Source: a virus. From it: a stretch of 64,000 nt of DNA. Under the pieces are notes generated by a model. The model had not been told where the DNA came from, did not search any database, and saw only the letters and a list, made by a program, of their open reading frames with translations. The DNA is taken from the IMG/VR virus record IMGVR_UViG_3300031555_001876. One strand, 5' to 3'. Positions 21,602 through 46,067 of this stretch are shown here, in pieces. The position numbers and the translations under genes were made by a program. The first letter of the stretch is position 1. Every line of letters begins with the position of its first letter.

Positions 21602-21649
21602 ACACAAAATATAGTGTGGCACTACTTATTGCCATACTATATTTGTGAT
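21602..21649 (+). promoter_or_regulatory. two NrdR-box-like palindromes upstream of nrdD
   Basis: ACACAAAATATAGTGT lies at 21602-17 and ATACTATATTTGTGAT at 21634-49, spaced 32 bp start to start. They resemble the NrdR operator consensus acaCwAtATaTwGtgt in tandem arrangement. Confidence 0.35.
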
Positions 21650-21665
21650 GGAGGATACTAAATAT

Positions 21666-23921: not shown

Positions 23922-23950
23922 GGTTGTCCAAATTTGGACAACCTTTATAA
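23919..23950 (+). terminator. rho-independent terminator after nrdD
   Basis: Stem AGGTTGTCC / GGACAACCT followed by TTTAT. Confidence 0.5.
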
Positions 23951-23995
23951 AGCCTCTTTAAAAAATATTTATATATAATAGAAGAGGTGTGTAAA

Positions 23996-24932: not shown

Positions 24933-24934
24933 AA

Positions 24935-25434: not shown

Positions 25435-25440
25435 TATAAT
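25412..25440 (+). promoter_or_regulatory. sigma70-like promoter TTGACT-N17-TGATATAAT
   Basis: -35 at 25412-17; -10 at 25432-40. Confidence 0.45.
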
Positions 25441-25590
25441 TTATGTAGAAGGTGATTAAATCTGGATACAACAAATTTTAGAATAACATCTACGCATCCA
25501 AGTTGCTATGAAGATTTTATTCCATAGGTTGGTGAAATTGTTTATGTACAAGAGACTGAATCAATATGGATATATGTTGAAGGTTAGTGG

Positions 25591-25992
25591 ATGCCATTGT
25601 GTGATAATATAAAGGTAGATAATGATATGAATTTATATGAAATGAATCAAAATATGGTTAAGCAACTTCCTGTATTAGATATTACAGAAAAAGAACTTAA
25701 CTTAATTAATCAATTACATAATATTCATGGGAATCAATATTATATGCTTCTATGTAATGATATGAAGTATTATACTATTCTTAAAGTATCTTCTGCTTGG
25801 GCTATTATGCCTACTATGTGTGAAACTCTTGGTTTAACTGTTGTTGATTGTTTAAAAAGTGTCGGTGATATTAAATCTATTGATTTAGTTCCTGATAATT
25901 CCGCAATTGAGATTTGGCTAGAAAACACAGAAGGTATATATTGTATGTATTTATTCCCATATGATGAAGGAGTTGTTGAATTCCGTGGCTAA
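25591..25992 (+). CDS. hypothetical protein; possible N-terminal extension from a CTG at 25462
   Basis: The frame is open from 25456. Promoter 25412-25440 and RBS AGGTGA precede CTG 25462. Confidence 0.3.
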   Translation: MPLCDNIKVDNDMNLYEMNQNMVKQLPVLDITEKELNLINQLHNIHGNQYYMLLCNDMKYYTILKVSSAWAIMPTMCETLGLTVVDCLKSVGDIKSIDLVPDNSAIEIWLENTEGIYCMYLFPYDEGVVEFRG

Positions 25993-26269
25993 TAGATATA
26001 TTGTAAGTAATTTATCAATGTTTAATTATCATAATAAAATTTATATTTATAATGATAATGGCGAAAGTGAAGAAATTGGCGAATGTAATTTAAATGACGC
26101 CGCAGAGCAAATTGCTTATCATTGTTTAAATAATGATATTGAATTTGTTCAAATTTATGGCAATGGTTTGTATTTAAGACCAATAGCAAAAAGTATAGTG
26201 CGCGAAGTAGATAAACAAAAATTGAATTATTCTAATAAAAATTTAAAGGTAAAGGTAACTATCGGATGA
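25961..26269 (+). CDS. hypothetical protein
   Basis: ORF only; the true start may be at ATG 26019. Confidence 0.25.
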   Translation: MMKELLNSVANRYIVSNLSMFNYHNKIYIYNDNGESEEIGECNLNDAAEQIAYHCLNNDIEFVQIYGNGLYLRPIAKSIVREVDKQKLNYSNKNLKVKVTIG

Positions 26270-26511
26270 AATATTTAGTAAGTTCTGTTGATACATATAG
26301 AGTAAATACTGTTGAAGAAGTTGAACAATTTCACGAAGAATTAAAAAATGATGCTCATTTTACACTTGCATCTTTTGGTTATAAGCATAAGGAAATAAAG
26401 CAGAAGGGTGAAGTTATTGATGAGTATGAACTTGTTACTGTAAAAAAACTTTTTAATAATGAAAAAGAACCTGATAGCGATATTAAGATTACTTATGGGA
26501 TGGACTTTTAA
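26266..26511 (+). CDS. hypothetical protein (81 aa)
   Basis: ORF with start/stop coupling to its neighbours. Confidence 0.3.
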   Translation: MKYLVSSVDTYRVNTVEEVEQFHEELKNDAHFTLASFGYKHKEIKQKGEVIDEYELVTVKKLFNNEKEPDSDIKITYGMDF

Positions 26512-27083
26512 TGAATAAATTTGAAGTAGTAAGTAGATTTAAAGATAGTAAAATTAATTTAATTCCTACTCGTAAAACTAATGGTAGTGCAGGTTATGAT
26601 TTTTATGTTGCAGAAGATATTATTATTCCTCCTTACTTCGTTCAATTAGATAAAATGGAAGAATATGGTGGCCTCATTACTATGAATTTAGAAGAAGTTG
26701 CTAATAAAACAAAAGAATTAAAAGCAAGACCTACTCTTGTTTCTTCTGGAGTAAAATGTTAGTTAGATGAAGGTTTGTATCTTGAACTTTCTACCCGCAG
26801 TTCTACTCCTTTAAAGTATTGGTTAATTCTTGCCAATAGTGTAGGAATTATTGATAGTGATTATTATAATAATGAAGATAATGAGGGCGAAATCTTTTTC
26901 CAATTAATTAATTTAAGTCCTTGGTATATTAATCTTAAAGCAGGAGACTGTATTGGCCAAGGTATTATTAAACAGTATGATTTAACCGATAATGATTTTA
27001 CTGATAAAATCCGTAAAGGCGGTTTTGGGTCTACTGATATTTTTGATGCCTTCTTTACTCGGCGTCAAGATGATGGAAAATGA
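26511..27083 (+). CDS. dut: dUTP diphosphatase; one in-frame TAG at 26760
   Basis: Motifs AGYDF, GIIDSDY and RKGGFGSTD are present. Track ORFs 26511..26762 and 26775..27083 are joined by the TAG. Confidence 0.75.
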
Positions 27084-27566
27084 GAATACTTGCATTTGAT
27101 TAGTCCTCACGTGTAACTGGATATGCTGTTTTTGATAATGACAGATTAATCGCTTATGATAAATTCACTTGCGTTAGTGATGATATTGGTGAGCGACTCG
27201 TTCAAATTAGAAAAATGCTTTTGGGTTTAATTGCTATTTATGACCCAGATGCAGTCGCTTTTGAAGATATTTAGTTACAAAATAATATTATTAATAATGT
27301 AGAAACTTTTAAAGTTTTAGCAGAAGTTTTTGGTATATTTTATGAGACTTTAAAAGAAATTGGAATAGATTATCATATAGTTCCATCTGTTACTTGGAAA
27401 AGTAAATTAGGAATTAAAGGTGCGAAGCGTGCTGACTAGAAGCGTGCGGCCGCAGCCTACGTCGCGCAAACATATGGAGTAAAAGCCACGCAAGATGAAT
27501 GTGATGCTATTTGCATTGGTGCTTATGTAAGCAATATACCTGAAGACTATGATTGGTCAGAATAAA
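27080..27566 (+). CDS. RuvC-like Holliday junction resolvase; 3 in-frame TAGs
   Basis: MRILAFD(TAG)SSRVTGYAV matches RuvC IIGIDPGSRVTGYGV. AVAFEDI(TAG) matches the AIEQ catalytic Glu region. Confidence 0.65.
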
Positions 27567-27622
27567 TAATTCTCATACCTCTAAATTTTAAAGTATTTAG
27601 AAATTGGAGGGAGGGAAAACCA

Positions 27623-28078
27623 ATGCTAACATTTTTCGCAACCTATGGAACTGAAGTTATTCTTGCGGTTGTAATTTTAATTGCTACTGGCATTTGCAAA
27701 TATTTCTATAATAAAGCAAAAGAAATTTAGAAACTTTATGATGGAGAAGAGAAAAAAGCAATTGACAAAGCAATTGATAAAAAACTCGAACCAATAGTTG
27801 AAGAGTTAGATGAATTACGCATGGCCCTTCAAAAGAATAAGGATTTAGAAGAATCTCATTTAAGGATAATTCTTTCTTCTTATCGTTACCGCTTAATGTC
27901 TTTATGTAAGCAGTATATAAAACAGGGCTATATTACTCCAGAACAATATGACCAATTAACTGAATTTTATAAAGTTTATCACGATTTAGGTGGTAATGGT
28001 CAAGCAAAAGAATTCTACGATAAAGCGTTAAGTCTTCCTTGTCACGGAGACGCTACAGTGGAAGTATATCACGAATAA
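27623..28078 (+). CDS. membrane-anchored coiled-coil protein; one in-frame TAG
   Basis: The N-terminal TM segment is followed by a charged helix. The track ORF 27821..28078 extends upstream in frame through a TAG (~27728). Confidence 0.35.
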
Positions 28079-28125
28079 AAAAAATAGGGAAAGTGAATTA
28101 ATTCACTTTCCCTATTTTTTATTTT
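28078..28125. terminator. bidirectional terminator between the plus early block and the leftward minus block
   Basis: A-run, then stem TAGGGAAAGTGAATT / AATTCACTTTCCCTA, then T-run. Confidence 0.6.
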
Positions 28126-28438
28126 AACAACCTTTTATATCACAAAAAGTTTGATTAGTAATATCAATAATTTCTTGACCGTAAGTTGCAATTAAATCTG
28201 CTACTATTTCTTCGAAATATATATCCATAAGAATACCATAACTAAACATTGCCGCGTGTACTAATTCGTGACATAAAACTTTTTTAAACATTTCTCTATC
28301 TAATGATTCATAAATATAAATAGTTTTATCAATATCATCACAACATCCAATAGTAACAGAACCATCACTTCGAATTAACGTTGGATGATTGGTAGAAACC
28401 AGGATAATTTGCCAATATTCACCATTAATAACAAACAT
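28124..28438 (-). CDS. small zinc metallopeptidase (ImmA/IrrE-like HExxH)
   Basis: Motif VLCHELVHAAMF is present. Confidence 0.4.
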   Translation of the reverse strand: MFVINGEYWQIILVSTNHPTLIRSDGSVTIGCCDDIDKTIYIYESLDREMFKKVLCHELVHAAMFSYGILMDIYFEEIVADLIATYGQEIIDITNQTFCDIKGC

Positions 28439-29025
28439 TATTTAACCTAACCGATTTTAGATGCTAAAGCCGAAACTCGTTTTTCAAGATATTGTCTTTC
28501 TTCTGGTGAAGCATCTTCAATCATTTCTACCATATCCTGTGTTAATTCTTGCATATATTTTTCTAATTCTTTAATTTGAGATGCTTTATCTCGATGCATC
28601 TCTTTTGATTCCATATAAGTTTTTCTTGTCTAATGACTGCGGCCTTCGCGTGGGTCACGCATCATCATATCATATTCAGTATAAGAACGATTACTGCCGC
28701 CATTTGAAGAACTACTACGACCACTTTGTCCAGAAGAAGAAGAGGATGAAGAGGAAGGAGTATAATACATTCTACCCTTTTCTCTGTCCATATCTCTTTC
28801 ATTATACATTGGTTGAGTATAGTAATGATACTCCTTTTCTTTCTCTTTTCCTTTTTCTTTCATCGCTTCAGTAATAGTGCAATAATACATTGCTTCTTCT
28901 AAATCTTTCAACATATCAATTGCTTCTCCAAGTTCTTTAGCATCAACATCTTTTAAATTACCCATTTGACTTTGAACGCAAGCCATTAAGGACTATTTCA
29001 TCATTTCATATTGACTCATACACAT
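28438..29025 (-). CDS. Ser-rich hypothetical protein with C-terminal coiled coil; 2 in-frame TAGs
   Basis: RBS GGAGGA precedes ATG 29025. The gene extends track ORF 28630..28986 in both directions. TAA 28438-40 overlaps the next ATG. Confidence 0.4.
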
Positions 29026-29039
29026 ATTAATCCTCCTTT

Positions 29040-29462
29040 TTATGCCACACGTTCAACAATCAAATTGGCATTCTGAACATTGATTGGTTGAGTACTTACA
29101 TTTCTTACACTAACGCTCATACAGCAATTGCGCGGAACATCAATAAATATAGCGCTAAATACATTAAAAAATTCTTCAACGGCTGCAGGAGTAACTATCA
29201 TAGTAGTTGTTCCAATTGCCTCTCCTTCAATAGCAATTGCTAAAGAGATTGCTTCAACGGTACCACCAGTAGGAATTGAAATATTGCCGCCGAAACTCAC
29301 TTTAAAGCGAGCCCGACTTTGGCAATTAGTAATTCCTCTTAAAGTAATAAGACCACTACCATCACGATGGACTATGGAGCAATTCCCGCAAGTTACAGTA
29401 TCAGTAAATTGAACATTCTGATTCACAGGGACAACCTGTAATACATTAGCAGTTATTTCCAT
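29040..29462 (-). CDS. hypothetical protein resembling spore-coat/exosporium small proteins
   Basis: 140 aa with Cys pairs (CGNC, NCC). The similarity call is from memory of Firmicute spore-surface proteins and is weak. Confidence 0.3.
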   Translation of the reverse strand: MEITANVLQVVPVNQNVQFTDTVTCGNCSIVHRDGSGLITLRGITNCQSRARFKVSFGGNISIPTGGTVEAISLAIAIEGEAIGTTTMIVTPAAVEEFFNVFSAIFIDVPRNCCMSVSVRNVSTQPINVQNANLIVERVA

Positions 29463-29496
29463 TTATTTTCCCTCCAATATAGTGTTTTATTACTTA

Positions 29497-30273
29497 TTAA
29501 CCAAAATAGTTACTTCCTTCGCAGCATCCGCTACTTCTAAAACCATAACCATAAGGACTATAGCAGCAGTTAGGATTTGGTACAAAGTACGCAGGAATTG
29601 GGCAAGGATCACTTAATTTACTTACCAAATAGGCGTTCTGGGCTTGCTGGGAAGCAGCAAATTTTAGTGACTGATTCTCGGCCTGTAAAGCAGAAATTCT
29701 ATCTTGTGTTAAGAAATCTAAAATAGAACGAACACCTGCATTCTGATTATCAATAATATCACGAGTAGAATCGCTAATAACGTGGCGAGTATCACAAGAC
29801 TGAGTTGCTAAATTATAATTGGTATCAGAGAAGCCACGTTCAATGGCTCTTTGAGTTCCACAGCAACAGTCGCTTATTTGATGAGATAAACTATTCATTG
29901 CCTGCGCTTCTTGGTAGCCTAAAGTACAAATAGCATTATCAATTCCGTGGAAACCACTCATTAAAGCATTATTTAATGCATAAGTACTATCTGCTAAACC
30001 ATAAGTCTGCTGGTCTAATTTAGAAATTAAAGTCTGCTGGTCAACAGCAGCACGCACATCTTCTTGAGTGGCAGGGAGTCCATAACGCATTCCACCACCA
30101 CCACCAAAACCACTACCGCCGAAGCCCCATCCGCCGGCAAATAAGAATAATAAAATTATCCACCAACCATTGTCGCCAAATAATCCATCACCATTTCTAC
30201 TGGAGCCACTGGTGACAGCGGCAATGTCGGCTAAACTATACATACTATTTCCAAACATTTTCATTTCCTCCAA
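29497..30273 (-). CDS. Gly/Cys-rich membrane protein
   Basis: A TM segment is followed by a GGWGFGGSGFGGGGG tract. The C-terminus PNPNCCYSPYGYGFRSSGCCEGSNYFG is Cys-rich. Confidence 0.35.
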   Translation of the reverse strand: MEEMKMFGNSMYSLADIAAVTSGSSRNGDGLFGDNGWWIILLFLFAGGWGFGGSGFGGGGGMRYGLPATQEDVRAAVDQQTLISKLDQQTYGLADSTYALNNALMSGFHGIDNAICTLGYQEAQAMNSLSHQISDCCCGTQRAIERGFSDTNYNLATQSCDTRHVISDSTRDIIDNQNAGVRSILDFLTQDRISALQAENQSLKFAASQQAQNAYLVSKLSDPCPIPAYFVPNPNCCYSPYGYGFRSSGCCEGSNYFG

Positions 30274-30285
30274 TTAATTTAAAAA

Positions 30286-30531
30286 TTATTTAAAACCATA
30301 TTGGGCTTTAAATTTTGCAAATTCTGTATCGAAATCTAATCCTCTTTGAGCAACTAAATTTCGAGCAATTTTTTCAATCTCACTCGTTTGTCCAGTCCGT
30401 GCGAGATTTAGGAGATTTTCTCCCATTGGGGTTCCTTTCATTTGATTTTCTAATACACTCATTACTAACTGTTGTGGATTATATCCTTGCTTAATCATCC
30501 CAATCAACTAATTGGGGTCTACGTAGAACAT
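30286..30531 (-). CDS. hypothetical protein; one in-frame TAG
   Basis: RBS AAAGGAGG precedes ATG 30531. The gene extends track ORF 30286..30507. Confidence 0.35.
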
Positions 30532-30591
30532 TGGAAGATACCTCCTTTAAAATTAAAATTTAAAAACTGGTTGCGATTGCTGTGCCGCAGG

Positions 30592-30944
30592 CTATGACAT
30601 TTCTAATAATTTACCCTCATATGTTTTTATTAATTGATTAATTACTTCTTCAAATTCTTCACGGGTAACATAAGAAGAGTCATTAGACTGGTCAGCAGGT
30701 TTAATTTGGCTTAATTCGTATAAATTTATACAAACCGTGCCATCCATATTTATAGATTTAGTATAAATTTTTTTATTTGCTACATCTGGAAAATAAAACA
30801 CTGAACCATCAAAATCAATAGGAGAGGCTTTCACTTCTTCAATAGAAGAAACAGGCCTAACCTATGATATTACTTGAGGATTTATGTTCCAGTTTGTATA
30901 TGGCTACTATCTATAATTAGGAATAAATTGCTATTGCTGATAGG
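30592..30944 (-). CDS. hypothetical protein; 4 in-frame TAGs
   Basis: RBS AAAGGAGG precedes ATG 30944. The gene extends track ORF 30592..30834. Confidence 0.35.
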
Positions 30945-31035
30945 GGTAATTCATAAATAGGCGCCTCCTTTACATTTTCATTTTCCTTACCTCTTCATTA
31001 CTATATAATTTTTAAGTCAAATAAATAAATAAAAG

Positions 31036-31138
31036 AAACTCACACATTTTTTGATAAATTTTTCGTTGCTGCGTTTTTAATTAAATTTTTCAAACTCACA
31101 ATTTTAATTGAAAAAATTTTTCTCACAATTTTAGTTGA
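31036..31138. promoter_or_regulatory. three imperfect direct repeats AAACTCACA(A/C)ATTTT(A/T)(A/G)TTGA, candidate LytTR-regulator binding sites
   Basis: Copies lie at 31036-31056, 31091-31111 and 31121-31138. Repeats 2 and 3 are 27 bp apart, and repeat 3 abuts the -35. They sit in the divergent intergenic region between leftward operon 30944<- and the LytTR gene. Confidence 0.45.
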
Positions 31139-31164
31139 TTTTTTCACAAAAATATGTTATAATA
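31135..31164 (+). promoter_or_regulatory. promoter of the LytTR regulator gene (TTGATT-N18-TGTTATAAT)
   Basis: -35 at 31135-40 overlaps direct repeat 3. The extended -10 is at 31156-64. Confidence 0.45.
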
Positions 31165-31199
31165 TAATAAAATAATAAATAAATAAAAAGGAGAAATCA

Positions 31200-31904
31200 A
31201 TGTTATCGATTGCTATTTACAGTGACAATTTAAATGACGCACGACTTCTTCAATCAAAAATTTAGGATTTTCTTGTAGAGAATAAAATTTTAGCAAAAAC
31301 TAAAGTATTTGATACAATGGAAAAATTTATTACAGTACCTGATACTTTCGATATTTATTTTATGGATATGGACTCAAAAGATGATGTATTAAGCATTGGA
31401 AGCCAAATGATAGATATTGACCAACAAAGTTATTTTGTATATTGGAGCAGTGATAAAGCATCTGCATATGATGTAACAAAAATTCGTGCAAATTACTTCT
31501 TATTAAAACCCATAGAACCTGGAGACTTGGAAGGTATTATGAATAGTATCAAGAAAAGAATTAAAAAAGATACTGTTATAATAAAAACTCCAGAAGGAGA
31601 TAGAAGAGTATACACCAATGATTTAAATTATGTTAATATTGTAAAAAGGTGTACGTGTTATCATTTAGTAGACGGTGCAGTATTTGATGGATAGACACTG
31701 CGCGGCGCATTTGAAAAAGAAATATATCCATTACAAGAACATCCTAAATTAGCATTTATTCCACCAAGTTTATTAGTTAATATGACAAATATTAAAATAT
31801 TAAACAAAGAAAGTGCAACTTTTGACAATGATGATGTTATATATTTGCCAAAGAAAGCATATGATATCATAAAAAACAAATGGTTTTTATATAACCAAAT
31901 ATAA
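31200..31904 (+). CDS. LytTR-family transcriptional regulator (receiver-like N-domain plus LytTR DNA-binding domain); 2 in-frame TAGs
   Basis: The C-terminal segment VYTNDLNYVNIVKRCTCYHLVDGAVFDG(TAG)TLRGAFEKEIYPL..FIPPSLLVNMTNIKIL fits the LytTR domain. It is preceded by promoter 31135-31164 and three direct repeats. Confidence 0.6.
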
Positions 31905-31955
31905 AAAAAATAAGGCTCGTATCAATTAAGATACGAGCCTTATTTTTTATTTTTT
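31904..31955. terminator. bidirectional terminator between the LytTR gene and the end of the late operon
   Basis: A8, then stem AAGGCTCGTATC / GATACGAGCCTT, then T-rich. Confidence 0.6.
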
Positions 31956-32336
31956 ATTAAGATTTACACTTGCTTCAATTTTTTTACTTATATAAGTATC
32001 TAAATCTCCAACTACTGTTGCTAAATATTCTTTAGCATCATCTGTTAGAATTAACATAACCGCGTCGGCTGACTTTTTAAAAGCCTCTTTTTGCGCTTCA
32101 ATAGTAAATTCGCCTTTACTTTTTAAACTTTCAACATAAGTTTGATTTGTAGCAATAACGCAATCAGTAATTGTCTTTTCTAATAATGTCATATACTTAT
32201 CATATTGAGCATTATTAGTTTTTTCTTTTACTTCTTTCATATGAGTATTTAACCATTTAATAAAATAAGTAGTTAAAACTCCTAACAGAGGTATAATACA
32301 TACTTCAAAAATTTGAGCAATTAATCCAATTTCCAT
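31947..32336 (-). CDS. small membrane protein, holin-like (last gene of the late operon)
   Basis: 129 aa with one N-terminal TM helix. A strong RBS AGGAGGAATAATAT is present. The gene ends at TAA just before a bidirectional terminator. The holin call is positional. Confidence 0.3.
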   Translation of the reverse strand: MEIGLIAQIFEVCIIPLLGVLTTYFIKWLNTHMKEVKEKTNNAQYDKYMTLLEKTITDCVIATNQTYVESLKSKGEFTIEAQKEAFKKSADAVMLILTDDAKEYLATVVGDLDTYISKKIEASVNLNKK

Positions 32337-32352
32337 ATATTATTCCTCCTTA

Positions 32353-35300
32353 TTAATAATAACTTTCAGTATCCCATACAGGGATTATTTTATTTAAATA
32401 ACTTGCAGTATAAGTAATTTCTTTAGCATATATATCATCTTCAACAATAGAGTCACTTAATACGGCTTCACCAGTTAATAACATTAATGACCAATTGTTA
32501 TTAACATATTGACCCCACCAGGTTTCTTCAGCAACTAGTTTAGTAGCATCTTCCTTATCGATGTGATATATATTCATAGTATATACTTCACCATTTTGGC
32601 TATTAGGTACTCCATTCGCAATATCATATTGAGAAATAATATCATTTAATTCATCTATCTTACTAATATAATAAACAGACGAATTATTTTCATCTTTCTC
32701 TAATGAGCCTACTTCAACATTGTCTTTACGAATAAATTGTAAAGTCTTTACACTTTGAGGGGTGCCAACAGGACCTAAAATAGAACCTTGCTTTATCCAT
32801 TTTCCATTTATATACATAAATACCCAGCCACGGCAAGGGTCATCTACTCGAGTTACAGTATGAATATAAATATCATTTTCACTTAAATCTCTATCTTCTA
32901 AAATATTAGGCTAATAAGAGTTTGTGTCTGCGTTCCAAGATAAATCTTTATCTTTAAGGTCTGAAGCAGTAAAAATATGAATTGCTTTTGGTAAATAGAA
33001 ACTAAATAATTGAACATCTTGATTTCTAATTGATTCCTCTATTTGAATCTCTTCTCTATTATTTATTTCTATTTTTTCACTTCTAAAGTAAGGAATATTT
33101 GGAATATGAAAAATAAATTTTTCTCGATATCCATTATCTTTTTCTCCTATTAATAAATTAGTTGATAATTCAACTTTTGAACGTGTATATTTCTAAATAT
33201 TATCTACTGAATCTTTATAAAGTTCAAAAGCAGATTTTTCTTGAATTTCAACTTCTGGAGAAGGTGCTGTTATAATTCCTATATATCTTACACTTAATAA
33301 ATTTTCTTTTTTACTCTTAAATTGATATAATCTACCTGAAGGCTTATTAATATACATATCTCCAGGTAATACGTCCTATTCTAATAAAGCAAAATGATAT
33401 CTTAAATTAGATAATAAATAAGTATATTTTTGAATATATTTTATTATATCATAAGAATAAATAAGATATTCTCTTTCAACACTTTCTTCTAATAAATTAT
33501 CTTCATTATGCAATTTAATATAAATCCATCTTAAATCAATAACTGAATCATAAGAATTATATAAATTTAATAAAGTAGATAAATTTGAATTCCACATATA
33601 ACCTTTATAATACTAATAACAATATTCATACTATTTATCAGTATTTAAAGTATTAAAATATTCTTTACTATAAAAATTATTTTTATTCCAACAATCATTT
33701 AAGAGATTTAAATCATTAATTGTATTAGGTCTATAATTAGAGATAAAATTTTCTAATGGTTCTTTCATTTGATATAATTCTGAATAAATTGCATCACAAT
33801 AGTCTTCTAATTTATCTTTATATTCATATTTTAAAGTATTTTTATTAAAACCATATAAGCCCCAAGGAATTTTATTTTCTAAATCATCTACTTCAGAAGT
33901 ATTACTTAAAATATTAAGCAAACTTTTATCTTTGTAATAATAATTTTTGATAGAAGGATAATTATCAATATTATTATTTATATAATCAGTAAATAATCTT
34001 ACACTAAATATTTTATCAGTATCATCTACTGTCATAATTTCAACAGAACCATTACCACCATCAAAATATAAAATAGTTCCTTTAACTTCGTTAATAGGAC
34101 ATAATTTTGCATATACTCTAATAAAATTATCTAATATTTCGACTCTAAAGAAATCTTCTTCATAAGGATTGCTCATTGTAAGAATTGCAGAGTGAGAAGT
34201 TGTTATTCCTTCTACTGGAATGTCAACATAGAACTAATAACTTTCAGTAGCATAATTAGGATTAACTTCCCAATTTCCAAGAGTATCAATACTATATTTT
34301 CCCGCTGGTTCTATCCCTTCGCCAATCTATACTGCAATCATTCCATCACGAGTATTAACTGTTTCATCTTGATTTAAATCAGCATACATTAATTCGACTT
34401 CATCTTCTATGCCAACTAAAGATTCTGTTATAATTCTTCCATCTTCAGAATCAATCTTTCCATCACCGTTAACATCACCACGCATACGACCGGCCGGAAT
34501 GGTAATTTCCTAATTCTCACTATTATTACTTATATCCGCCGCGCTTAATGCGCCGCGCAGTAAACTAGTTAAATCAACTATTTTATTAATATCTTCACTA
34601 CTACAACTATAAATAATATCATCAAAAGACCAAGGATGTTCTGCAGTATAACTAAATGGAAATTCATTTAAATCGCCTTGCCCAAATAAAGGACCAGAGA
34701 AATACTTTACTTCTCTTGGTAACTAAAAATCTAAAATAGGTTTAGTTAAAGTTGCTTCAACTAATTTACCATCAATTTCTCTAACTTCACCACTTACTAA
34801 CAAATCAACATCTGGGTCTCTAGTAGGCCCTAGAACTGTATTATAAATATTTTCAATTCTCTATGCTCTTTGCTAATAAAATTTAATCTGTGGTTTATCA
34901 GGGTTAGTTAAATCATAGGTCACATAAGGATCTCCATCTTCAATATCAATAGTCTAATGGAAAACTTGAATTCTTGGAGTTTGACCTGTAACACAAGCAA
35001 TTAAACGATAACCAAAGCCAAAATTCTCTTCAGAATAAATATCAGAAGTTTCTTTTAAACTTTCACCAGGTATCTATCTAAATCTAATAATAGTACCATC
35101 AGGATTAATCCAGTTACCATCTTTATCACAAGGAACATTTTGATTTAAACTTGGAGAATAAATAGAGTATGTTCCATCTCCATTAGGATTTACTTCTCCA
35201 ACATCTTCAAAATTAATAAAAACATAAACATTTTCTTCCGAATTGGGAAAGTCAGGAGATACTTCTTTACTATCTTCTACATAAATCTTCTACCAAATAG

Positions 35301-35568
35301 AGTTAGTATAAGATTTACCACAATTCATTAAGTCAATATTTAAATTCTATTCATAAGTAGAAGGCTCAACAATTGTTTCACCATTTTCATTTTTATATAT
35401 TTTATTTAATTCAGCAATATCGCCATAACTAATAAAAACATAATCGCCAACATTAATAGGAGAATACCAACGAGCCTATAAGTCTTTTAATAAATCTTCA
35501 GAGCGATTCGAGAAGATTTGAGAAATTCTAAAATCTTGACCTTTCTATCCACCATAAAAACTATACAT
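32353..35568 (-). CDS. large tail fiber/receptor-binding-like protein (1071 aa) with an internal dockerin-like double Ca-binding repeat; ~17 in-frame TAGs
   Basis: The minus frame is continuous from ATG 35568 (RBS GAGGGGGGAAG) to TAA 32353 with TAG as sense. It joins track ORFs 32353..32817, 33376..33597 and 33631..34176. Motifs GDVNGDGKIDSEDGRII..ADLNQDETVNTRDGMI are encoded around plus 34330-34500. Confidence 0.5.
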
Positions 35569-36272
35569 TAGATACTTCCCCCCTCAAATGTTGTAAACAT
35601 AAAATCTATAATAACATTTTTCAAATCCTGTAAATAATCATTTTCAACATAAACACCCGCTAAACCTTTTATATATCTTGCTCTTGCGGCATTATACTCT
35701 GTTAAATATTTGTTATGGATTACTTCATATTGTTCCCAAAATTTTTCATTTGTTATTGTAGAATTTGGTGCCTCTTGTTCTAATTTTAACTATCTATAAG
35801 CCTTATCAAAATCAGTTTTTGCTTTTTCCATTTGACGAACTCCATCACTAACATAGTTATTAGTTTGATAAACATCAATAGTATACATTTTAGGACGTGC
35901 AAAAACCAATCTTTCCACTTTTATATCATCATCCAATTCATAAATACCAGTACGACCAACAATAATCTCTTGCCCAGAATATTTAACAACTTTACCCTCT
36001 TCATCAACATCAATCTATCCATCTATATAAAATTTTGTTCCAGGAGGGGCTTGAATACCTAATTTATAAATACTCTAACTAAAATTTTTAAATACATTTT
36101 CAGTATAAATATTAATTTTTTTTTCTTCATAATCTTTAGATAAAGATGAAATTATATAGTTATTATTATTAGGATTTGAGGCTTCATTAGAGGGTTTAAT
36201 GTCTTTAGTACTGGAAATTAATCCACCGGTTCCGCCATAATCTTCTAAATTATATATAATTTGGCCTATCAT
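35568..36272 (-). CDS. hypothetical virion protein (234 aa); 3 in-frame TAGs
   Basis: RBS GGAGGT precedes ATG 36272. The TAA stop 35568-70 overlaps the next ATG (TAATG). Confidence 0.4.
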
Positions 36273-36288
36273 ATATATATTAACCTCC

Positions 36289-39200
36289 TTATACTCTTAC
36301 CATTGCTTGATTAGTAGTAATAGACATATTACCATTATATCCCAATGGTAATGTATATTGAGTAATAATGTAATCTCCATATATATTACTCTTACTATCA
36401 CTAACATAAATAATATTATTTGGTTCTAAATAATATTTTGGTACACAATTTATATTAACAGAAATATTATAATATAAATTACTATATAACATTTCTCGAA
36501 TTAAATCAAAAGCCGTAGTTCCAGTAGAACTTGAAGCAAAGTATTTCATTTGAGAAGGCTTAATAGCACAATACTATTGTCCTAAAATTTGATACTCTTC
36601 TATCTACTGTAAAACTTCAGCAGTACCTGTATTTTCAATAAAGACAATATCAGGTACTTCTAATTTATACAACATTTTAATATTTTCTTTAGTAATCGCT
36701 TTAGTGCGGCGACCTATCTAATTTACTGAATAAGTATTTATTAACTAAATACTATCAATAAAATCTAACCAAAATGTTAATAAACCTGGGTCCCTATATA
36801 TCGCAGGATTCCAACCTTCCCAATTATCATCGATATAATCTACCCATTCTTTTTTCCATTCTTCATTTAAAGTATCAAAATTCTAACGCCAAAACGCTAA
36901 CAGTTCTTCATCATAATAGCCCGTTTCACCTGCACTCGATTGATTCAATAAGGCTTGACGATATAATTCTTCTCGCCACTCTTCGCAAGGATTACCAATT
37001 AAATCATAATAAAAATTATTTTCATAATCAAAATCATTTTTTAATTCAGGGCTATAAGTAATAACTTCTTGTAAATAGTTCGCGGCCGGCGCACTTGATA
37101 AATCAACTTTATAATTATAATAATAATCAGCCACTTCTAATAGTAACTAATTTACAAAATCATCTAATCCTGCAACTAAATAATAATCATAAATTAATTT
37201 ACCATCTTCGACACTAACAATAGAAAACTATGTTTTTTCTTCCTCTTCTTTTTCTTCTTCTTTTGGTTGTTCATCATCGTACTTATTATCAGTATCCCGG
37301 TCTGGATCTATAGTTTCAGTCCAAGGCAATAAATTATTATAATCTTCATTATTGGCTAAATCAACTATAACTCCTATATCATTAACTAAAGCAGTAGAAT
37401 TTTGAGAATAATAAGATGTTAAATTTTTTATCATTTTTTCTCTATTTTCTTTAGAGAACAATATTTTTCCTTCTGAATCAGTAACATCTTCAAAATTATA
37501 AATAAATTTAATATCAATCTTATCTCCGTTGCCTTGACGAATATCTTGAGGATTTGCGTCATTCATATATAAACCTGATGAATTATTTATTTTTGTAATT
37601 ACTGATAAATTATTATATTCATCTACAAAATCATTAGATACAAAAATTCTGATATTATGAGTTGTTTTAAAAAGTGAAGAAATACTTTCTAAATCTTCAA
37701 TACTCATTTTAGAATCTTTTAAAGTATAGACACTTATCCATTCTTCTTTTTCATCATAATATCCTAACTCTTTTTCTTTTAATTGTAATAAAATATAATA
37801 TTTTTCAATTACTTCTTCCTCTTCTTCCTCTGCTAAAGTTTCTATACTAGAATCAACCTCTTCAGTCCAATCAAGAATATTATCTCCTTCAGAATCAGTA
37901 TCTTCTTTTGGAGCATTATATATTCCTATTAAAAAAGATTGCTTTGATATAGTATCTGTATACATATCTAAATACTCGATATATTCAATAGCCTATTCTT
38001 TTATTGAAGCCTTATAATATCTAATCTCATTGCCCCAATAGACTCTTAAATATAGAATAAAAGAACTTTCATATGAAGAATAATTTACATAATTTTTTAT
38101 TAAATAATCTGTGATATTGTCTATTATCTATTCTTCTTTTGTATTTGTTGAATCAAAATATAACTCAATAGGTTCTGGTTTAGGCACATTTATATAATCT
38201 TTATAAGTTGGCTCAAATAAATAATATAAATGTTCTTTTTTACCATTTTTATAATTTAATACTTCCCACATATATTGATTAGCCAAATCAATATAAGGTT
38301 TTTCATCTATTGCAACGTGATACTTTAAATTTTTTGTAACACCATTTGCATCTGTGCGACTTCCCCAAACAACAAAATCATTTTTAATATTATCATATCG
38401 AGGACTATTGTAATAAGATAAACTATCTTTAGCATTGTCTAATGTTTTATAATATTTAGTATCAGAAAAGGCTTTAATATAAAAATTATCATTTAATTCC
38501 ATAACAGGAGTATAATAACTATTTAAATAATTTTTCTTTTCTTGAAAAACAAAATGCCCATCTAAATCATAAAAATATTCATAATTTCCAATAGTCTAAA
38601 TGATTTTATCTAAAACTGCGGTGACTGGCTCACCTGCAGAAAATACTAACTCTCCTGGATAAGTAAAATCAGTTTCCATATAACCAATATCTTGTCCATA
38701 GATAAATTTATGCGCTAAAAAATTTTCATTATCTGGTGCTTTTTCACTAATCATAAAACTGCTATAATCATCAGTAAACCAAATAGGATAAGTACCCATA
38801 TATTTCATACTTTGTTTAGCAACTAATTCTACATCATTAATGATAATATTTTGTTCAATCTCTTTACCATAATGACGTACTAATTCTTTTATAATAGTAA
38901 AAATTGGAATTTTTTCAATTTTTATATCGCCAAATTCATCTTCTATTTGCGCTTCGTGGAAAGTTACTGTAGCGGGTAAGGTGCCGCCGCAAGTACCATC
39001 AAGCATACACATTTTATCTTTGCCTTTTATGCTAATAGTAGCAGAAGTTGCAGTTGTTGAACTTGTTGCCTCTGTAATAACATATACTCCAATAGGAAAC
39101 CAAATTATATCTCCGTAGTAAGCATATGTCTTAAAAGGATTTTTTATACCAATTTCAACTTTAATTTTTTTATTAGCAGAAATGATATTATCAATATTAC

Positions 39201-39423
39201 TAATATCATTTTCATTTTCAGGAGCAACTAAAGTGAGTGCAAGAGTGCGGCGGACCGCAGATGCACCATTTACAGTTACAGTGCCTGCGGTCGCTATTCC
39301 TTGTATCTATCTAATAGGTTCTTCTTTAAAATTTAAAACCTATAATCTAATAAAATGTTCTTTAATGCGCATTTCGTCTAATGTTCTTAAAAATTCTATA
39401 TCATTTAAATATTCTCTTGACAT
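36289..39423 (-). CDS. large tail/baseplate structural protein (1044 aa); ~14 in-frame TAGs
   Basis: The frame is continuous from ATG 39423 (RBS GGAGGT) to TAA 36289. It joins track ORFs 36289..36549, 36883..37134, 37228..37965, 38128..38502 and 38596..39012. An acidic repeat region EEEEEEV..EEEKEEEEKT is present. Confidence 0.45.
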
Positions 39424-39438
39424 TGAATTTTACCTCCA

Positions 39439-42400
39439 TTAACCTTGCCATATTCCTTTAATTTCCAAGGATGCAATGGCTCTATAATTTACTATACCGT
39501 AAGATGGCTTAGCAAAACGCAACTAATCAATATTTCTATTAATTGTTTTTAATACAAATTTATTAGTTGGTCCAATTCGAGTTCTTGTACAATCTCCGGT
39601 CATTATAACTTCACCATCAACATATTTATCACGCGCATTAAAAATAACTTCAACATTTTCATCTGCTTCAATTTCAATGGCTTCTAAACCATCAAAATGA
39701 TAAATAACATAATGTCCTTCATTATCCATCCATACATCAGTTGAACTATCTTGTTCTATTGTAGATAATGGATAATAGGTCTTTAAAATTTTATTAGCCT
39801 CTTCAACCTATTCTTCATAAGACATTAATAATAAATTTTCTTCTTTTAAGAAATTATCAATTGTTTCCTCTAATTTATTACGAGTCATTTTCAATGTTAT
39901 GCCATACATATCAAAAATTCTCTAACGAGTTTTTTCTTTTATAATATCCATAATATCTAATGACTAATATAAACGATAATTATATTTTTCAGAAACAGTT
40001 AAAATTTCAGGATTTCTTTCTACTTCGTGGTTATCTAAAATTTTCTAATTAGTAGTAAATAATCCACCAACCTAACCCCAATTAGCCAATTCCTATTTTT
40101 CAATAGTAACTTTTGGTAAGAAATCAACTTCCTCTATTTCTGCTACATAATTAATTAATACAGGACGAGTATATTTTAAATATAAACTATCAATATCAAC
40201 ATTATCTAACTAATAAACTCTTCCTGGGAACATAGTAATTTCTTTGCCATTTAATATCATAGTTATAATATTTGATTGACTTAACTCATACTATTTTAAC
40301 ATTAGTTCATATTTAGCAATCTATAACTATTTCTTTAGTTTATTAATTTTAGTATCATAAGTAATAGATTTTAAATTTTGTATTTCCTATTCAATATTAT
40401 ATTTAGGATATAACTCAACCCAAATCTATGATACTTTATTTAATTGATATTTCTTTTCATCACTTATTTCAATCTCTTCCTATTGGCGTATCCATTCAAT
40501 AATATTATCCTATTCAGAGTCCCAATAGGGATTTAATTTTTGAGAAAAATGTAAATCTTTTGATTTTAAATAAATAAAATTAACTATTTCAGAAGGTAAT
40601 TTTTCATAAGTGATATATTCATTTTTTACCTTATCAAAAAATCTCCAAGGCGCAAGCCCTTTATCCAACATTTCCATATATAAATCTTCTGGAATAGACA
40701 TAGAATTTATATATTTACCATCGAATGCGCCGCGCACCTATCCGGGCACTATACGATATGCAGACTCAAATTGACCTATTTCATTAACTACATTATGAGA
40801 AATTGCGTCTAATGGATTAATATTATACAATTTCATATTAGCAACAGTATTTTCTGCCACTTCATAAACAGTTGAATTAAAATCAGCAATTAGACGTCCT
40901 AACTATTGATTAGGTACCAATGATACATTAACAAAAGTAACTATCATATTGCCTTCAGTAGGAGATTTATATAGTTTATATCCACCATCATTTAAGAATG
41001 CTTCAACATATTCTCGATAAATACGTTCCATAAAAACATTATTATTTGTATGGTTAAAATCAAAAATAGAATTATCATATCCACTAGAAGATATTTGAAT
41101 AATATCTTCAAGTCTTAAATGTCTATCGTAAGATAAACAAAACTTTTCTGCGGGAATTACTATATTATTACCATAAATATATCCGCCCAAATAAACCTAT
41201 TCCTTTGATTCAGGGTCAAAATCATATCCGACTGATTTTCTAAAGAAAGTATTTTCATCACTATGTAAAGTAATTTTTGCTCCTAATGAAAATTCTCCAT
41301 AATTTGCTAACCCATTTCTCAAGATAATAGGATATTTAGAATTTAAACTATCTTGCTTTTGGAATAAACGAGTATGTTTAAATTGCTATATTTTTACATC
41401 TAAATCTAATTTTACTTGTACACCATTGCAATAAACATAACAATGCTAGAAATTAGATTGATGCGCTGGAGATAAACCTAAATCACTTAATTCATATTTG
41501 GGCGCCGAGCGCAATCCAGACACACCTTGTCTTTGAATAGCATATTTATATTTAACGCCACTTTCAACAGTATAATCTTCATATAATAAAGTCAACTTTT
41601 CATTATAAGCATCTTCATTAAACCATTCAAAGCGCGCAATATCTTCCCAAATTGTATAATTTGTTTTTTCGCTTGCACGGCTAATAAAATATACGCCATC
41701 GAGATTTTGCAAAACTGTAGTCAATTCCCAATCATAATATCCTGTTAAATCATCAAATTTTTGATATTCTCTTTGAGTAGGATTATTTTTAATATATAAA
41801 CGAAGACATCCATTATCGTCAACAAAAGTATCATTATCTAATGATTTTGCCCAATTTTGGCGTTCTTCTAAAGATAAAATTATATATTTTTCTTTTTCTT
41901 TATATACAATATCAGTATCTTTAACTTTTAATCCAGTTTCTTCTTCAAAGACTTCTTTACTTTCAAAATCTCCATCATCTCCAAAACTGATAAAAGTAGC
42001 ATCTATGGATAATCCAGCCAATCTCTAATAAGTTCTAAACACCGACCTAGTAGGAGCATAAAACTTATCAGCGTAGAAACCAGAATTAGTATTATCTTTT
42101 ACAATAAAACTTAAATATTCTAAACTTTTTAAATAAACCTCTGTAATAGTAAAAATATAAGGTTTAGAAGAACACTGATAACCATTTTTAGTTATTATAT
42201 CAAAAACTAAAGTATAATATTCATCACCCATATACTATAAAGGCTAATTGAATACTTGTTTAACTAAAGCAGTATAAGTTTCATTACCGCTTCCATTAAA
42301 CTACATCCATTCAGTAGATAAATAACTATTATATTCTTCACCGACTTCTTTTCCTTCATATAATCTAAAACGATATTTATCTAAAGGTTCTTCGGCTACA

Positions 42401-42987: not shown

Positions 42988-43099
42988 ATTTTACCTCCTT
43001 TATCTCATATTATCTATTTAAATTTAAAAAATAACTTTCTATAATGTGCGATATTTGCCCAAAAAGAAAAAGGATAAGGGTATATTTATACCCTTATCC

Positions 43100-46057: not shown

Positions 46058-46067
46058 ATTTACTCCT

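What the first reader, a model, noticed from the sequence alone, without database searches (positions are those of the whole stretch)
34330..34500. Dockerin-like double Ca-binding repeat inside a 1071-aa tail fiber-like protein
The reconstructed gene 32353..35568 encodes ..RMRGDVNGDGKIDSEDGRIITESLVGIEDEVELMYADLNQDETVNTRDGMIAVQ.. This is two 12-residue D-x-N-x-D-G-x-x-x-x-x-D loops separated by ~20 residues, the signature of type I dockerin modules of cellulosomal Clostridia and Ruminococci. A dockerin on a receptor-binding protein would let the virion dock onto host cohesin or scaffoldin proteins on the cell surface. It also points to a cellulolytic, cohesin-bearing anaerobic Firmicute as host.
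Basis: partly seen in the sequence, partly recalled or inferred. Interest (0 to 1): 0.65.

Follow-up and report, generated by a model that had tools for sequence, protein, structure and literature searches.

The report
Dockerin cassette in phage tail protein
A gut phage that reads the TAG stop codon as glutamine carries a genuine calcium-binding dockerin, the module bacteria use to assemble cellulosomes, in its last tail protein; it belongs to a ~170-residue cassette found only in phage tail-fibre proteins, which suggests an undescribed way for phages to attach to Gram-positive hosts.

Summary
Window 32353..35568 (minus strand) is one 1071-codon gene with 17 in-frame TAG codons that align with conserved Gln in homologues. 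Residues 364-410 match Pfam Dockerin_1 at 32 bits (cutoff 22.9). The predicted structure matches solved type I dockerins, and the loop pair is unique in the window.

The dockerin is not free-standing. It is the first half of a ~173-residue cassette (aa 349-521, window 34006..34524) in which it is packed against a small beta-sandwich. The cassette is a clean insertion that is absent from all 101 orthologous tail proteins retrieved, including those of syntenic sister phages. I found 124 other proteins with the full cassette, in 1-5 copies. Their other domains with a known role are all phage tail or receptor-binding domains, never enzymes or cohesins. Carriers include prophages in Clostridia MAGs and 23 IMG/VR contigs.

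The calcium ligands are almost invariant, while the helix faces that contact cohesin in known complexes are highly variable.

My best reading is a mobile, calcium-dependent host-adhesion module on phage tails. Docking onto host cohesins is plausible (about 0.3) but untested. A cellulolytic host is not supported by anything I could test. I rate it a new variant of a known kind.

The parts
32353..35568 (-). Carrier gene: 1071-codon distal tail protein, putative receptor-binding protein by position. 17 in-frame TAG (=Gln) codons, TAA terminator.
   Evidence: It is the last gene of the tail module, after the tape measure and three large tail proteins and before a 129-aa membrane protein. The same gene order is seen in sister phages L005/L006.
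34525..35568 (-). N-terminal region, aa 1-348. Conserved in orthologues (42-62% identity); probable virion-attachment part.
   Evidence: Local blastp against P0001-P0101; MAFFT alignment. No Pfam, PHROG or PDB match.
34006..34524 (-). Inserted dockerin plus beta-sandwich cassette, aa 349-521.
   Evidence: Absent from all 101 orthologues. Homologous at 27-46% identity to cassette copies in 124 other proteins. GC 32.4% and GC3 15.6% match the N-terminal flank, and 3 of its 4 Gln codons are TAG.
34483..34509 (-). Cassette leader EITIPAGRM (aa 354-362): the first beta-strand plus the nearly invariant G-R-M motif that precedes the dockerin.
   Evidence: In 61 non-redundant copies P is 59/61, G 60/61, R 60/61 and M 57/61. 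Modelled as strand 3-9 in the homologue model.
34339..34479 (-). Dockerin_1 (PF00404) match, aa 364-410.
   Evidence: 32 bits on the whole protein, 36.9 bits on the excerpt, cutoff 22.9. The AF2 model of aa 354-413 has pLDDT 81, and 32 of its 33 PDB fold matches are dockerins. All 11 PDB sequence matches are dockerin-bearing chains.
34441..34476 (-). Calcium-binding loop 1, DVNGDGKIDSED (aa 365-376).
   Evidence: Loop positions 1, 3, 5, 9, 12 are D, N, D, D, D. Across the family, position 1 is D 61/61, position 3 D/N 61/61, position 5 D 60/61, position 6 G 61/61, position 12 D 60/61.
34345..34380 (-). Calcium-binding loop 2, DLNQDETVNTRD (aa 397-408).
   Evidence: Loop positions 1, 3, 5, 9, 12 are D, N, D, N, D. 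Position 6 is E where the family usually has G (44/61). Position 1 is D 56/61 and position 12 is D 60/61.
34006..34326 (-). Beta-sandwich half of the cassette, aa 415-521, containing the conserved GNW-NPNY-TE-QFY-DI and R-YAKLCP motifs.
34510..34512 (-). In-frame TAG, codon 353, just upstream of the cassette leader.
   Evidence: sequence read.
34327..34329 (-). In-frame TAG, codon 414, at the end of dockerin helix 3.
   Evidence: Homologues have R or Q at this position.
34234..34236 (-). In-frame TAG, codon 445. It aligns with the Gln of the conserved QFY(T/V)DI motif.
   Evidence: Gln in 19 of 19 aligned residues, one further row gapped. Standard-code carriers use CAA or CAG here.
32356..34005 (-). 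C-terminal region, aa 522-1071. More divergent among orthologues (22-36% identity); probable distal, host-specific part.
   Evidence: No Pfam or PHROG match.
31947..32336 (-). Downstream 129-aa membrane protein (holin-like by position). It marks the end of the tail module.
   Evidence: Conserved at 79% in L005/L006 and 49-53% in L014-L026.
46106..54742 (-). 2878-aa tape measure protein with 52 in-frame TAG codons. It anchors the reading of this block as a tail module.
   Evidence: PF10145 PhageMin_Tail at 91 bits; TAG count.

Best explanation
The gene encodes the most distal tail protein of a large, TAG-to-Gln-recoded siphovirus that infects an anaerobic Firmicute. At the junction between its conserved N-terminal part and its variable C-terminal part, this protein has acquired a ~173-residue mobile cassette.

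The cassette starts with one beta-strand, leaves it for a complete two-loop, three-helix type I dockerin that binds two calcium ions, and then returns to finish a small beta-sandwich. The two halves form one rigid unit. The cassette is a tail-fibre-specific module that moves between phages and between different carrier proteins.

I think it most likely works as a calcium-dependent accessory adhesin displayed on the tail. It would give the virion an extra or alternative hold on the host's surface, with the variable helix 1 and helix 3 faces of the dockerin setting specificity.

Shown here: the frame and the recoding, the dockerin identity and fold, the insertion, the restriction to phage tail proteins, and the pattern of selection.

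Inferred: display on the virion, adhesion, and calcium dependence.

Ligand unresolved. My estimates are about 0.3 for a cohesin-type module of a cell-anchored host protein, about 0.3 for a cell-wall glycan bound through the beta-sandwich, and the rest for something else.
For: - **Frame and code:**
- **Dockerin identity:** Pfam 32 and 36.9 bits against a cutoff of 22.9. All 11 PDB sequence matches are dockerin-bearing chains.
- **Clean insertion:** absent from 101 orthologues.
- **Three locus states in one phage family:** cassette inside the 1071-aa protein (window), cassette at the N-terminus of a separate ~475-aa protein (L014-L025, L031, L032), and no cassette (L005/L006).
- **Census:** 256 representative clusters at E<=1e-30 (full-cassette and dockerin-only proteins together) and 124 retrieved proteins with a full cassette in 1-5 copies; 23 IMG/VR contigs.
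- **Prophage contexts:** the cassette gene sits next to Phage_fiber_2, baseplate and endolysin genes.
- **Co-occurring domains:** in 106 carriers, every co-occurring domain with a known role is a tail or receptor-binding domain (Collagen, Mtd_N, BppU_N, BppL_N, Peptidase_G2, Phage_tail_C, PTR), and the named PHROG matches are mostly tail fibre.
- **Selection pattern:** calcium ligands are nearly invariant, while canonical cohesin-contact positions 10, 11, 14, 17, 18 carry 3.0-3.8 bits of entropy.
- **Beta-sandwich:** its best matches are a lectin and phage tail-tip domains.
- **Avidity:** tandem multiplicity suggests avidity binding.
- **Long residence:** the cassette's composition matches the gene and its Gln codons are largely TAG.
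- **Reproducibility:** the junction is identical in six assemblies.
Confidence: 0.6

Rival explanations
1. One reading: the tail dockerin docks onto cohesin modules of a cell-anchored scaffoldin on a cohesin-bearing, cellulolytic Firmicute, and that scaffoldin is the phage receptor.
For: The fold is that of cohesin-binding dockerins; all top structural matches come from solved cohesin-dockerin complexes. Calcium ligands are under strong purifying selection, and the positions that set cohesin specificity in known systems are the variable ones, as expected for host-specific recognition. Carriers are prophages of Clostridia. Up to five tandem copies would suit a multi-cohesin scaffoldin. From established knowledge, cohesin-dockerin pairs bind at nanomolar or tighter affinity and are mechanically stable, which would suit adsorption.
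Against: No cohesin partner was identified, and none is encoded in the window. The host is unknown. There is no repeat 1 / repeat 2 symmetry at recognition positions. The query's residues at positions 10/11 and 17/18 are SE/TE in repeat 1 and TR/VQ in repeat 2, unlike the ST/KR pairs I recall for C. thermocellum. Dockerins also occur in bacteria that do not make cellulosomes (PMC6487960, citing Peer et al. 2009). The cassette is never linked to GH or CBM domains. The MAGs carrying cassette prophages are classified only to family level, in families not known mainly for cellulolysis. The cellulolytic-host part is the weakest step.
Confidence: 0.3
2. The beta-sandwich is the working part: a lectin-like module that binds a cell-wall glycan. 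The dockerin is only a calcium-stabilised structural subdomain, or a calcium sensor, with no ligand of its own.
Against: The lectin similarity is weak and no sugar-binding residues were identified. The conserved motif could simply be the fold's core. If the dockerin were only a scaffold, its helix surfaces need not be among the most variable columns, though neutral drift would also explain that. I never saw the beta-sandwich without its dockerin, but the search could not have detected that reliably.
Confidence: 0.25
3. The dockerin binds a phage-encoded partner and serves virion assembly or decoration: a viral cohesin-dockerin-like plug-and-socket that attaches extra fibres.
For: Some carriers are short proteins that are little more than the cassette, at 170-320 aa, and could be add-on subunits. 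Cohesin-dockerin is a natural assembly device.
Against: There is no Pfam cohesin in any predicted protein of the window, nor in the four prophage or phage contexts examined. The window and the cassette-less sister phages have the same gene set around the locus, so no partner gene co-varies with the cassette. No cohesin domain occurs in 106 carriers.
Confidence: 0.05
4. Artefact: a chance EF-hand-like loop pair, a wrong reading frame in a TAG-dense region, or a chimeric assembly.
For: The region is TAG-dense, and loop 2 deviates from the consensus at position 6 (E for G).
Against: The HMM score is above the curated cutoff, while EF-hand models are far below theirs. TAG codons align with conserved Gln. 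Shuffles produced no motif pairs. The fold prediction matches dockerins. The junction is identical in six assemblies. Cassette homologues exist in standard-code genomes.
Confidence: 0.01

Closest known systems
Type I dockerin modules of cellulosomal enzymes (for example C. thermocellum Xyn10B dockerin, PDB 1OHZ/2CCL; Pfam PF00404)
   Different: It is internal, not C-terminal. There is no signal peptide, enzyme or CBM. It is fused rigidly into a beta-sandwich. It sits on a phage tail protein. It shows no repeat symmetry at recognition positions. The cassette has its own invariant G-R-M leader. No cohesin partner is known.
X-module-dockerin dyads (type II CipA XDoc; R. flavefaciens CttA XDoc, PDB 4IU2/4IU3)
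   Different: The topology differs. Here the dockerin is an excursion between strand 1 and the remaining strands of the sandwich, not a module that follows an X module. There is no sequence similarity to X modules, and the context is a phage.
Non-cellulosomal cohesin-dockerin pairs (C. perfringens NagH/NagJ, PDB 2OZN)
   Different: Those dockerins sit on secreted glycoside hydrolases or toxins and have known cohesin partners. No partner is known here.
Accessory adhesion modules on phage virions (Ig-like domains such as T4 Hoc, BACON domains in crAss-like phages, CBM insertions in Dit/Tal/BppA proteins of lactococcal and lactobacillus phages); comparison made from my own knowledge
   Same: Small, mobile, non-essential modules. 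They are inserted into or appended to structural proteins, are often multiplied, differ between close relatives, and are thought to increase host or habitat encounter.
   Different: None of those uses a dockerin fold. The cassette has no PHROG family and no match in 50,697 deposited phage genomes.
Dockerin domains on a putative ANME-archaeal virus contig (PMC13452462)
   Same: The only report I found of dockerin domains on a viral contig. It also proposes a role in cell-surface adhesion.
   Different: That case has an archaeal host, dockerins next to a secreted NosD-like protein and an S-layer gene, no tail-fibre cassette, and no beta-sandwich fusion described.
phAss-1 / 'Phassvirus' group of TAG-recoded human-gut siphoviruses (PMC10607447) and Enterococcus Schiekvirus-type phages
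   Same: The capsid protein is 51% identical to phAss-1 and 40% to the Enterococcus phages. TAG is read as Gln in structural genes. Clostridia hosts are predicted, and the tail-fibre locus is variable.
   Different: No DNA or tail-protein similarity. That paper mentions no dockerin (0 occurrences). No suppressor tRNA lies within this 64-kb window.

Membership tests
Type I dockerin (Pfam PF00404 Dockerin_1) | HMM score above the curated gathering cutoff | tested here: met
   32.0 bits on the whole protein and 36.9 bits on the excerpt, against 22.9. 103 of 106 cassette carriers also match.
Type I dockerin (Pfam PF00404 Dockerin_1) | Two duplicated segments of about 22 residues, each a 12-residue calcium loop plus helix, separated by a short linker | tested here: met
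   Loops at aa 365-376 and 397-408. The repeats start 32 residues apart, leaving a linker of about 10 residues. The model has helices after each loop and a short middle helix.
Type I dockerin (Pfam PF00404 Dockerin_1) | Calcium-coordinating Asp/Asn at loop positions 1, 3, 5, 9, 12 | tested here: met
   D, N, D, D, D in loop 1 and D, N, D, N, D in loop 2. These positions are nearly invariant across 61 non-redundant copies. Actual calcium binding was not measured.
Type I dockerin (Pfam PF00404 Dockerin_1) | Three-helix dockerin fold | tested here: met
Type I dockerin (Pfam PF00404 Dockerin_1) | Binds a cognate cohesin | not testable with these tools
   This needs the host's identity and a binding assay. 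No cohesin is encoded in the window.
Type I dockerin (Pfam PF00404 Dockerin_1) | Internal two-fold symmetry of recognition residues (dual binding mode). This is typical of the family, not obligatory. | tested here: not met
   Positions 10, 11, 17 and 21 are the same in both repeats no more often than chance, for example 4 observed against 3.6 expected at position 10.
Cellulosome or amylosome component | Secreted (signal peptide) enzyme or scaffoldin bearing a C-terminal dockerin | tested here: not met
   The dockerin is internal, in a phage structural protein with no catalytic or CBM domain. None of the 106 carriers has a GH or CBM domain.
Cellulosome or amylosome component | A cohesin-bearing scaffoldin in the same genome or in the host | tested here: inconclusive
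   Absent from the 64-kb window and from four other loci. The host genome is unknown.
Phage tail fibre / receptor-binding protein | Encoded at the distal end of the tail module, downstream of the tape measure and baseplate genes and upstream of the lysis genes | tested here: met
   Gene order is tape measure (PF10145), 985 aa, 1182 aa, 1044 aa (phrog_1887 tail protein), 234 aa, this gene, then the 129-aa membrane protein. The order is conserved in L005/L006.
Phage tail fibre / receptor-binding protein | Conserved N-terminal anchor with a divergent C-terminal part | tested here: met
   N-terminus 42-62% identical and C-terminus 22-36% identical to the same orthologues.
Phage tail fibre / receptor-binding protein | Homology to a characterised tail fibre or receptor-binding protein family | tested here: not met
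   The flanks have no Pfam, PHROG or PDB match. Only the cassette's other carriers have such domains.
Phage tail fibre / receptor-binding protein | Present in the virion and binds the host | not testable with these tools
   Needs virion proteomics, cryo-EM and adsorption assays.
H-type lectin or tail-tip beta-sandwich (for the second half of the cassette) | Six-stranded beta-sandwich with significant structural similarity and sugar-binding residues | tested here: inconclusive

The most novel reading that the evidence does not exclude
A lineage of dockerins has been captured and specialised by phages of gut Clostridia. It is displayed on tail fibres, often in tandem, and lets virions plug into cohesin modules of cell-anchored scaffoldins (cellulosome, amylosome or other cohesin-bearing surface systems). 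The host's own protein-assembly sockets would then be the phage receptor, and the variable dockerin helices would track cohesin specificity from host to host.
Probability: 0.3. Interest if true: 0.85.

Novelty: new variant of a known kind. Interest (0 to 1): 0.62.

Why it matters
Receptors and receptor-binding modules are almost unknown for phages of strictly anaerobic gut Clostridia. This analysis defines a recognisable, widespread module: 124 retrieved proteins carry the full cassette, out of 256 matching representative clusters that also include dockerin-only proteins. It is restricted to tail proteins, has a confident structural model and has an obvious candidate class of ligand.

If the dockerin binds cohesins, phages would be exploiting the scaffoldin systems that organise fibre and starch degradation. 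Phage predation would then be linked directly to the key polysaccharide degraders of gut and rumen, and host range could be predicted from cohesin-dockerin specificity rules. It would also add natural, orthogonal dockerin variants to the protein-assembly toolbox.

Even if the ligand is a glycan, the cassette is a useful annotation marker for tail fibres in dark-matter phage genomes. The TAG codon at an invariant Gln is also a clean internal control for code-15 recoding.

Tried and rejected
- **DNA similarity to deposited phages:** blastn of the gene found only a 61-bp chance-level match to a crAss-like phage. tblastn of the cassette and of the N-terminal region against 50,697 phage records found nothing.
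- **PHROGs:** no family for the carrier or for the cassette.
- **tRNA scan:** no suppressor tRNA in the window, so the recoding had to be supported by alignment.
- **Structure prediction of the TAG-to-Gln sequence:** I modelled a 46%-identical homologous cassette and, separately, the TAG-free aa 354-413 of the query.
- **Cohesin in the phage:** Pfam scans of all predicted proteins found none.
- **Host identity:** the species-representative genome scan gave only four loci because the search pattern was narrow. The sample ids carrying this phage are not mentioned in any searchable paper. Peer et al. 2009 is not held.
- **Dual-binding symmetry:** absent.
- **EF-hand reading:** rejected, because EF-hand models score 8-15 bits against cutoffs of 25-30.
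- **Chimeric assembly:** rejected.
Full report
**1.

The minus strand of window 32353..35568 is a single 1071-codon frame. Its 17 internal stops are all TAG, and it ends in TAA. The whole late block 32353..63694 is TAG-rich, with 52 TAG codons in the 2878-aa tape measure alone. Reading TAG as sense turns the fragmented standard-code ORFs into a continuous structural module.

Reading TAG as glutamine is not an assumption here. In alignments to 34 homologues, the 17 TAG codons face Gln in 125 of 299 cells, against 115 of 398 at genuine CAA/CAG codons. Four TAG positions face Gln in all 19 aligned homologues. One of them is codon 445, inside the cassette's conserved QFY(T/V)DI motif, where standard-code carriers use CAA or CAG.

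Its loops are DVNGDGKIDSED (aa 365-376, window 34441..34476) and DLNQDETVNTRD (aa 397-408, window 34345..34380). The motif occurs nowhere else in any frame of the window, and shuffles produced no pairs.

**2. It is a dockerin**

- **HMM:** Pfam Dockerin_1 scores 32.0 bits on the whole protein (aa 364-410) and 36.9 bits on an excerpt, against a curated cutoff of 22.9. EF-hand models score 8-15 bits against cutoffs of 25-30.
- **Sequence:** all 11 PDB sequence matches are dockerin-bearing chains.
- **Fold of the query:** the TAG-free stretch aa 354-413 folds with pLDDT 81 into loop-helix, short helix, loop-helix. Thirty-two of its 33 PDB fold matches are dockerins, and the 29 with probability >=0.66 have query-normalised TM 0.65-0.76.

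**3.

The 101 best homologues of the protein (835-1337 aa, no Pfam domain) align to aa 1-~350 and ~520-1071 and skip the region between. A second set of proteins, all with PF00404, aligns only to aa ~342-554, sometimes in two or three tandem copies. A multiple alignment with the seven closest orthologues shows one clean gap covering query aa ~349-521.

The cassette therefore occupies window 34006..34524. It consists of:
- a leader strand with a nearly invariant P-x-G-R-M-x-G-D;
- the dockerin;
- a six-strand beta-domain with conserved GNW-NPNY-TE-QFY-DI and R-YAKLCP motifs.

In the model, the first strand belongs to the beta-sandwich and the dockerin is an excursion from it. The high pTM indicates one rigid body.

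**4. The insertion is old and real**

[quoted passage not shown] Three of its four Gln codons are TAG. The standard-code ORF that spans the cassette/C-terminus junction, together with the 52-aa dockerin fragment upstream of it, is found with the exact same sequence on at least 10 contigs. The six places shown come from six JGI assemblies and are 99.9-100% identical to the window.

**5. The phage and the carrier gene**

The late block reads as follows:
- capsid genes; the capsid protein is 51% identical to the TAG-recoded human-gut phage phAss-1, 40% to Enterococcus Schiekvirus-type siphoviruses and about 27% to large Bacillus siphoviruses;
- virion and tail genes;
- a 2878-aa tape measure (PF10145);
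- three tail proteins of about 1000 aa each, one matching phrog_1887 'tail protein';
- a 234-aa gene;
- the dockerin gene;
- a 129-aa membrane protein.

The replication module includes an anaerobic ribonucleotide reductase (NrdD, 474 bits) and its activase. The phAss-1 paper predicts Clostridia (Eubacteriales) hosts for that group (PMC10607447). So the host is very probably an anaerobic Firmicute, but I could not identify it.

The carrier's own flanks have no Pfam, PHROG or PDB relative. Its 'tail fibre / receptor-binding' label therefore rests on two things: its position, and its pattern of a conserved N-terminus (42-62% identity) with a divergent C-terminus (22-36%).

**6. The cassette is a mobile, phage-tail-specific module**

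- **Sister phages without it:** contigs L005 and L006 are TAG-recoded and collinear with the window across 11 genes at 45-79% identity, yet their orthologue lacks the cassette.
- **A more distant clade with it in another protein:** L014-L025, L031 and L032 belong to the same family, with five downstream genes syntenic at 44-67% identity. They carry the cassette at the same locus but at the N-terminus of a separate ~440-480-aa protein. L026 carries it inside a 1421-aa protein.
- **Outside the family:** it occurs in a myovirus-type prophage of a sporulating Firmicute. There two adjacent genes hold three and two copies, placed between a Phage_fiber_2 gene and an M15 endolysin. It also occurs in a prophage of an Acutalibacteraceae MAG, in a Lachnospiraceae MAG and in a 120-kb phage-like contig.
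- **Census:** an exhaustive profile search of 1.84 billion representatives gave 256 clusters at E<=1e-30, a list that mixes full-cassette and dockerin-only proteins. Among all proteins retrieved, 124 hold at least one full cassette: 109 with one copy, 11 with two, 3 with three and 1 with five. The cassette is internal, N-terminal, C-terminal or stand-alone.
- **Co-occurring domains:** in 106 carriers, every co-occurring Pfam domain with a known role is a tail or receptor-binding element: Collagen, Mtd_N, PTR, BppU_N, BppL_N, Peptidase_G2, Phage_tail_C and Phage_fiber_rpt. The named PHROG families are overwhelmingly tail fibre or minor tail. No glycoside hydrolase, CBM or cohesin appears.
- **Absent from reference resources:** the cassette has no PHROG family and no match in 50,697 deposited phage genomes.

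**7. Selection pattern**

Across 61 non-redundant copies the calcium ligands are essentially fixed. In loop 1, position 1 is D 61/61, position 3 D/N 61/61, position 5 D 60/61, position 6 G 61/61 and position 12 D 60/61. In loop 2, position 1 is D 56/61 and position 12 is D 60/61.

The helix positions that contact cohesin in solved complexes (10, 11, 14, 17, 18 of each repeat) are among the most variable columns, at 3.0-3.8 bits. That fits a calcium-dependent fold whose exposed helices either diversify with the ligand or are unconstrained.

The two repeats of a copy are only 30% identical. They share recognition residues no more often than chance, so the dual binding mode of C. thermocellum-type dockerins is not indicated.

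**8. How it most likely works**

- **Shown:** a genuine dockerin, in a rigid two-domain cassette, inserted into the distal tail protein, spread among phage tail proteins only, often multiplied, with calcium sites under purifying selection.
- **Inferred:** the cassette is displayed on the tail and acts as a calcium-dependent accessory adhesin that adds to or changes host-surface binding (confidence about 0.6). This parallels the accessory carbohydrate-binding and Ig-like modules of other phages.
- **Open:** the ligand. Binding to a cohesin is the only function known for this fold, which makes host cohesins the leading candidate for the dockerin half (about 0.3). But no cohesin was found in the phage, and dockerins also occur in bacteria that do not make cellulosomes (PMC6487960). 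A glycan ligand bound by the lectin-like beta-sandwich, with the dockerin as a structural or calcium-sensing subdomain, is about equally likely (about 0.25-0.3). A phage-encoded partner is unlikely, because cassette-bearing and cassette-less relatives have the same neighbouring genes.

**9. What is known, and novelty**

The full-text searches found no report of dockerins in tail proteins of bacterial viruses. The nearest item is a 2026 report of dockerin domains beside a NosD-like gene on a putative ANME-archaeal virus contig (PMC13452462). A rumen survey lists 0.3% of metagenomic dockerins as 'derived from viruses' without comment (PMC6487960).

The fold and the general idea of accessory adhesion modules on virions are both known. 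A dockerin-containing, tail-fibre-specific cassette is not. I therefore rate it a new variant of a known kind.

**10.

The observation and the dockerin call are correct. The step to 'docks onto host cohesin' is a reasonable but untested hypothesis. The step to 'cellulolytic host' is not supported by anything I could test.

Noticed in passing
window 4874..8572, 10262..12991, 15877..20876 (+ strand): Three replication genes appear to be interrupted by homing-endonuclease ORFs. (1) A DnaB-like helicase with an internal LAGLIDADG/Hom_end (intein-like) segment is followed by a GIY-YIG ORF (7177..7896) and then a separate DnaB C-terminal piece (8027..8572). (2) A RecJ DHH part (10262..11617), a GIY-YIG ORF (11689..12360) and a RecJ_OB part (12341..12991). 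(3) The PHP/NTPase/finger part of DNA polymerase III alpha (15877..18375), a GIY-YIG ORF (18545..19381) and its HHH_6 C-terminal part (19458..20876). The window has at least five GIY-YIG ORFs. These could be group I introns or split genes.
   Followed up: partly
window 1..64000: TAG is read as Gln throughout the structural genes (52 in-frame TAGs in the tape measure, 25 in gene 39439..42987), yet ARAGORN finds no tRNA at all in this 64-kb window. The suppressor tRNA is either elsewhere in the genome or absent, as in some phAss-like genomes (PMC10607447). Several late genes, including the capsid gene 61715..62854, have no TAG at all.
   Followed up: partly
L014-L025, L031, L032 (IMG/VR contigs of 42-138 kb, plus the 7.8-kb L018), cassette gene at about 7923..9360 in each locus: A second clade of TAG-recoded phages in the same family carries the cassette at the N-terminus of a separate ~440-480-aa protein with 1-5 in-frame TAGs. 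The C-terminal ~285 aa of that protein has no Pfam match. Standard-code gene calls truncate these proteins at the cassette.
   Followed up: partly
L001 9941..13979 (JGI 3300006217, contig Ga0081461_1000013): A myovirus-type prophage in a sporulating Firmicute has five cassette copies in two adjacent genes (three plus two), between a Phage_fiber_2 gene and an M15 peptidase endolysin. P0159 (943 aa) has five copies in a single protein.
   Followed up: partly
proteins P0165, P0169-P0174, P0177, P0179 and others: The nearest non-cassette relatives of this dockerin are large proteins with 5-38 tandem dockerin-like repeats and nothing else that the cassette profile recognises. Several have signal-peptide or transmembrane-like N-termini and low-GC-type amino-acid composition. 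I do not know what these poly-dockerin proteins are or which organisms encode them.
   Followed up: no
window 13019..13816 (+): A Phage_lysozyme2 (PF18013, 59 bits) protein with a signal-peptide-like N-terminus (MKKLFLVLFSIIILLNCTVFASA) lies in the early/replication region, far from the tail and holin-like genes.
   Followed up: no
window 28438..30954 (- strand): Four small genes just beyond the tail module are among the best conserved across the phage family, at 44-74% identity in L005 and L014-L025, but have no Pfam family above its cutoff. One is a 255-aa Gly-rich and Cys-rich membrane protein (29497..30264), one a 140-aa protein (29040..29462) and one a Ser-rich 195-aa protein (28438..29025).
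   Followed up: no
window 31200..31904 (+): A 234-aa gene on the opposite strand sits between the holin-like gene and the small conserved genes. It is conserved at 58% in L005/L006 and has no Pfam hit at E<=0.01. It is the only plus-strand gene inside the minus-strand late block.
   Followed up: no
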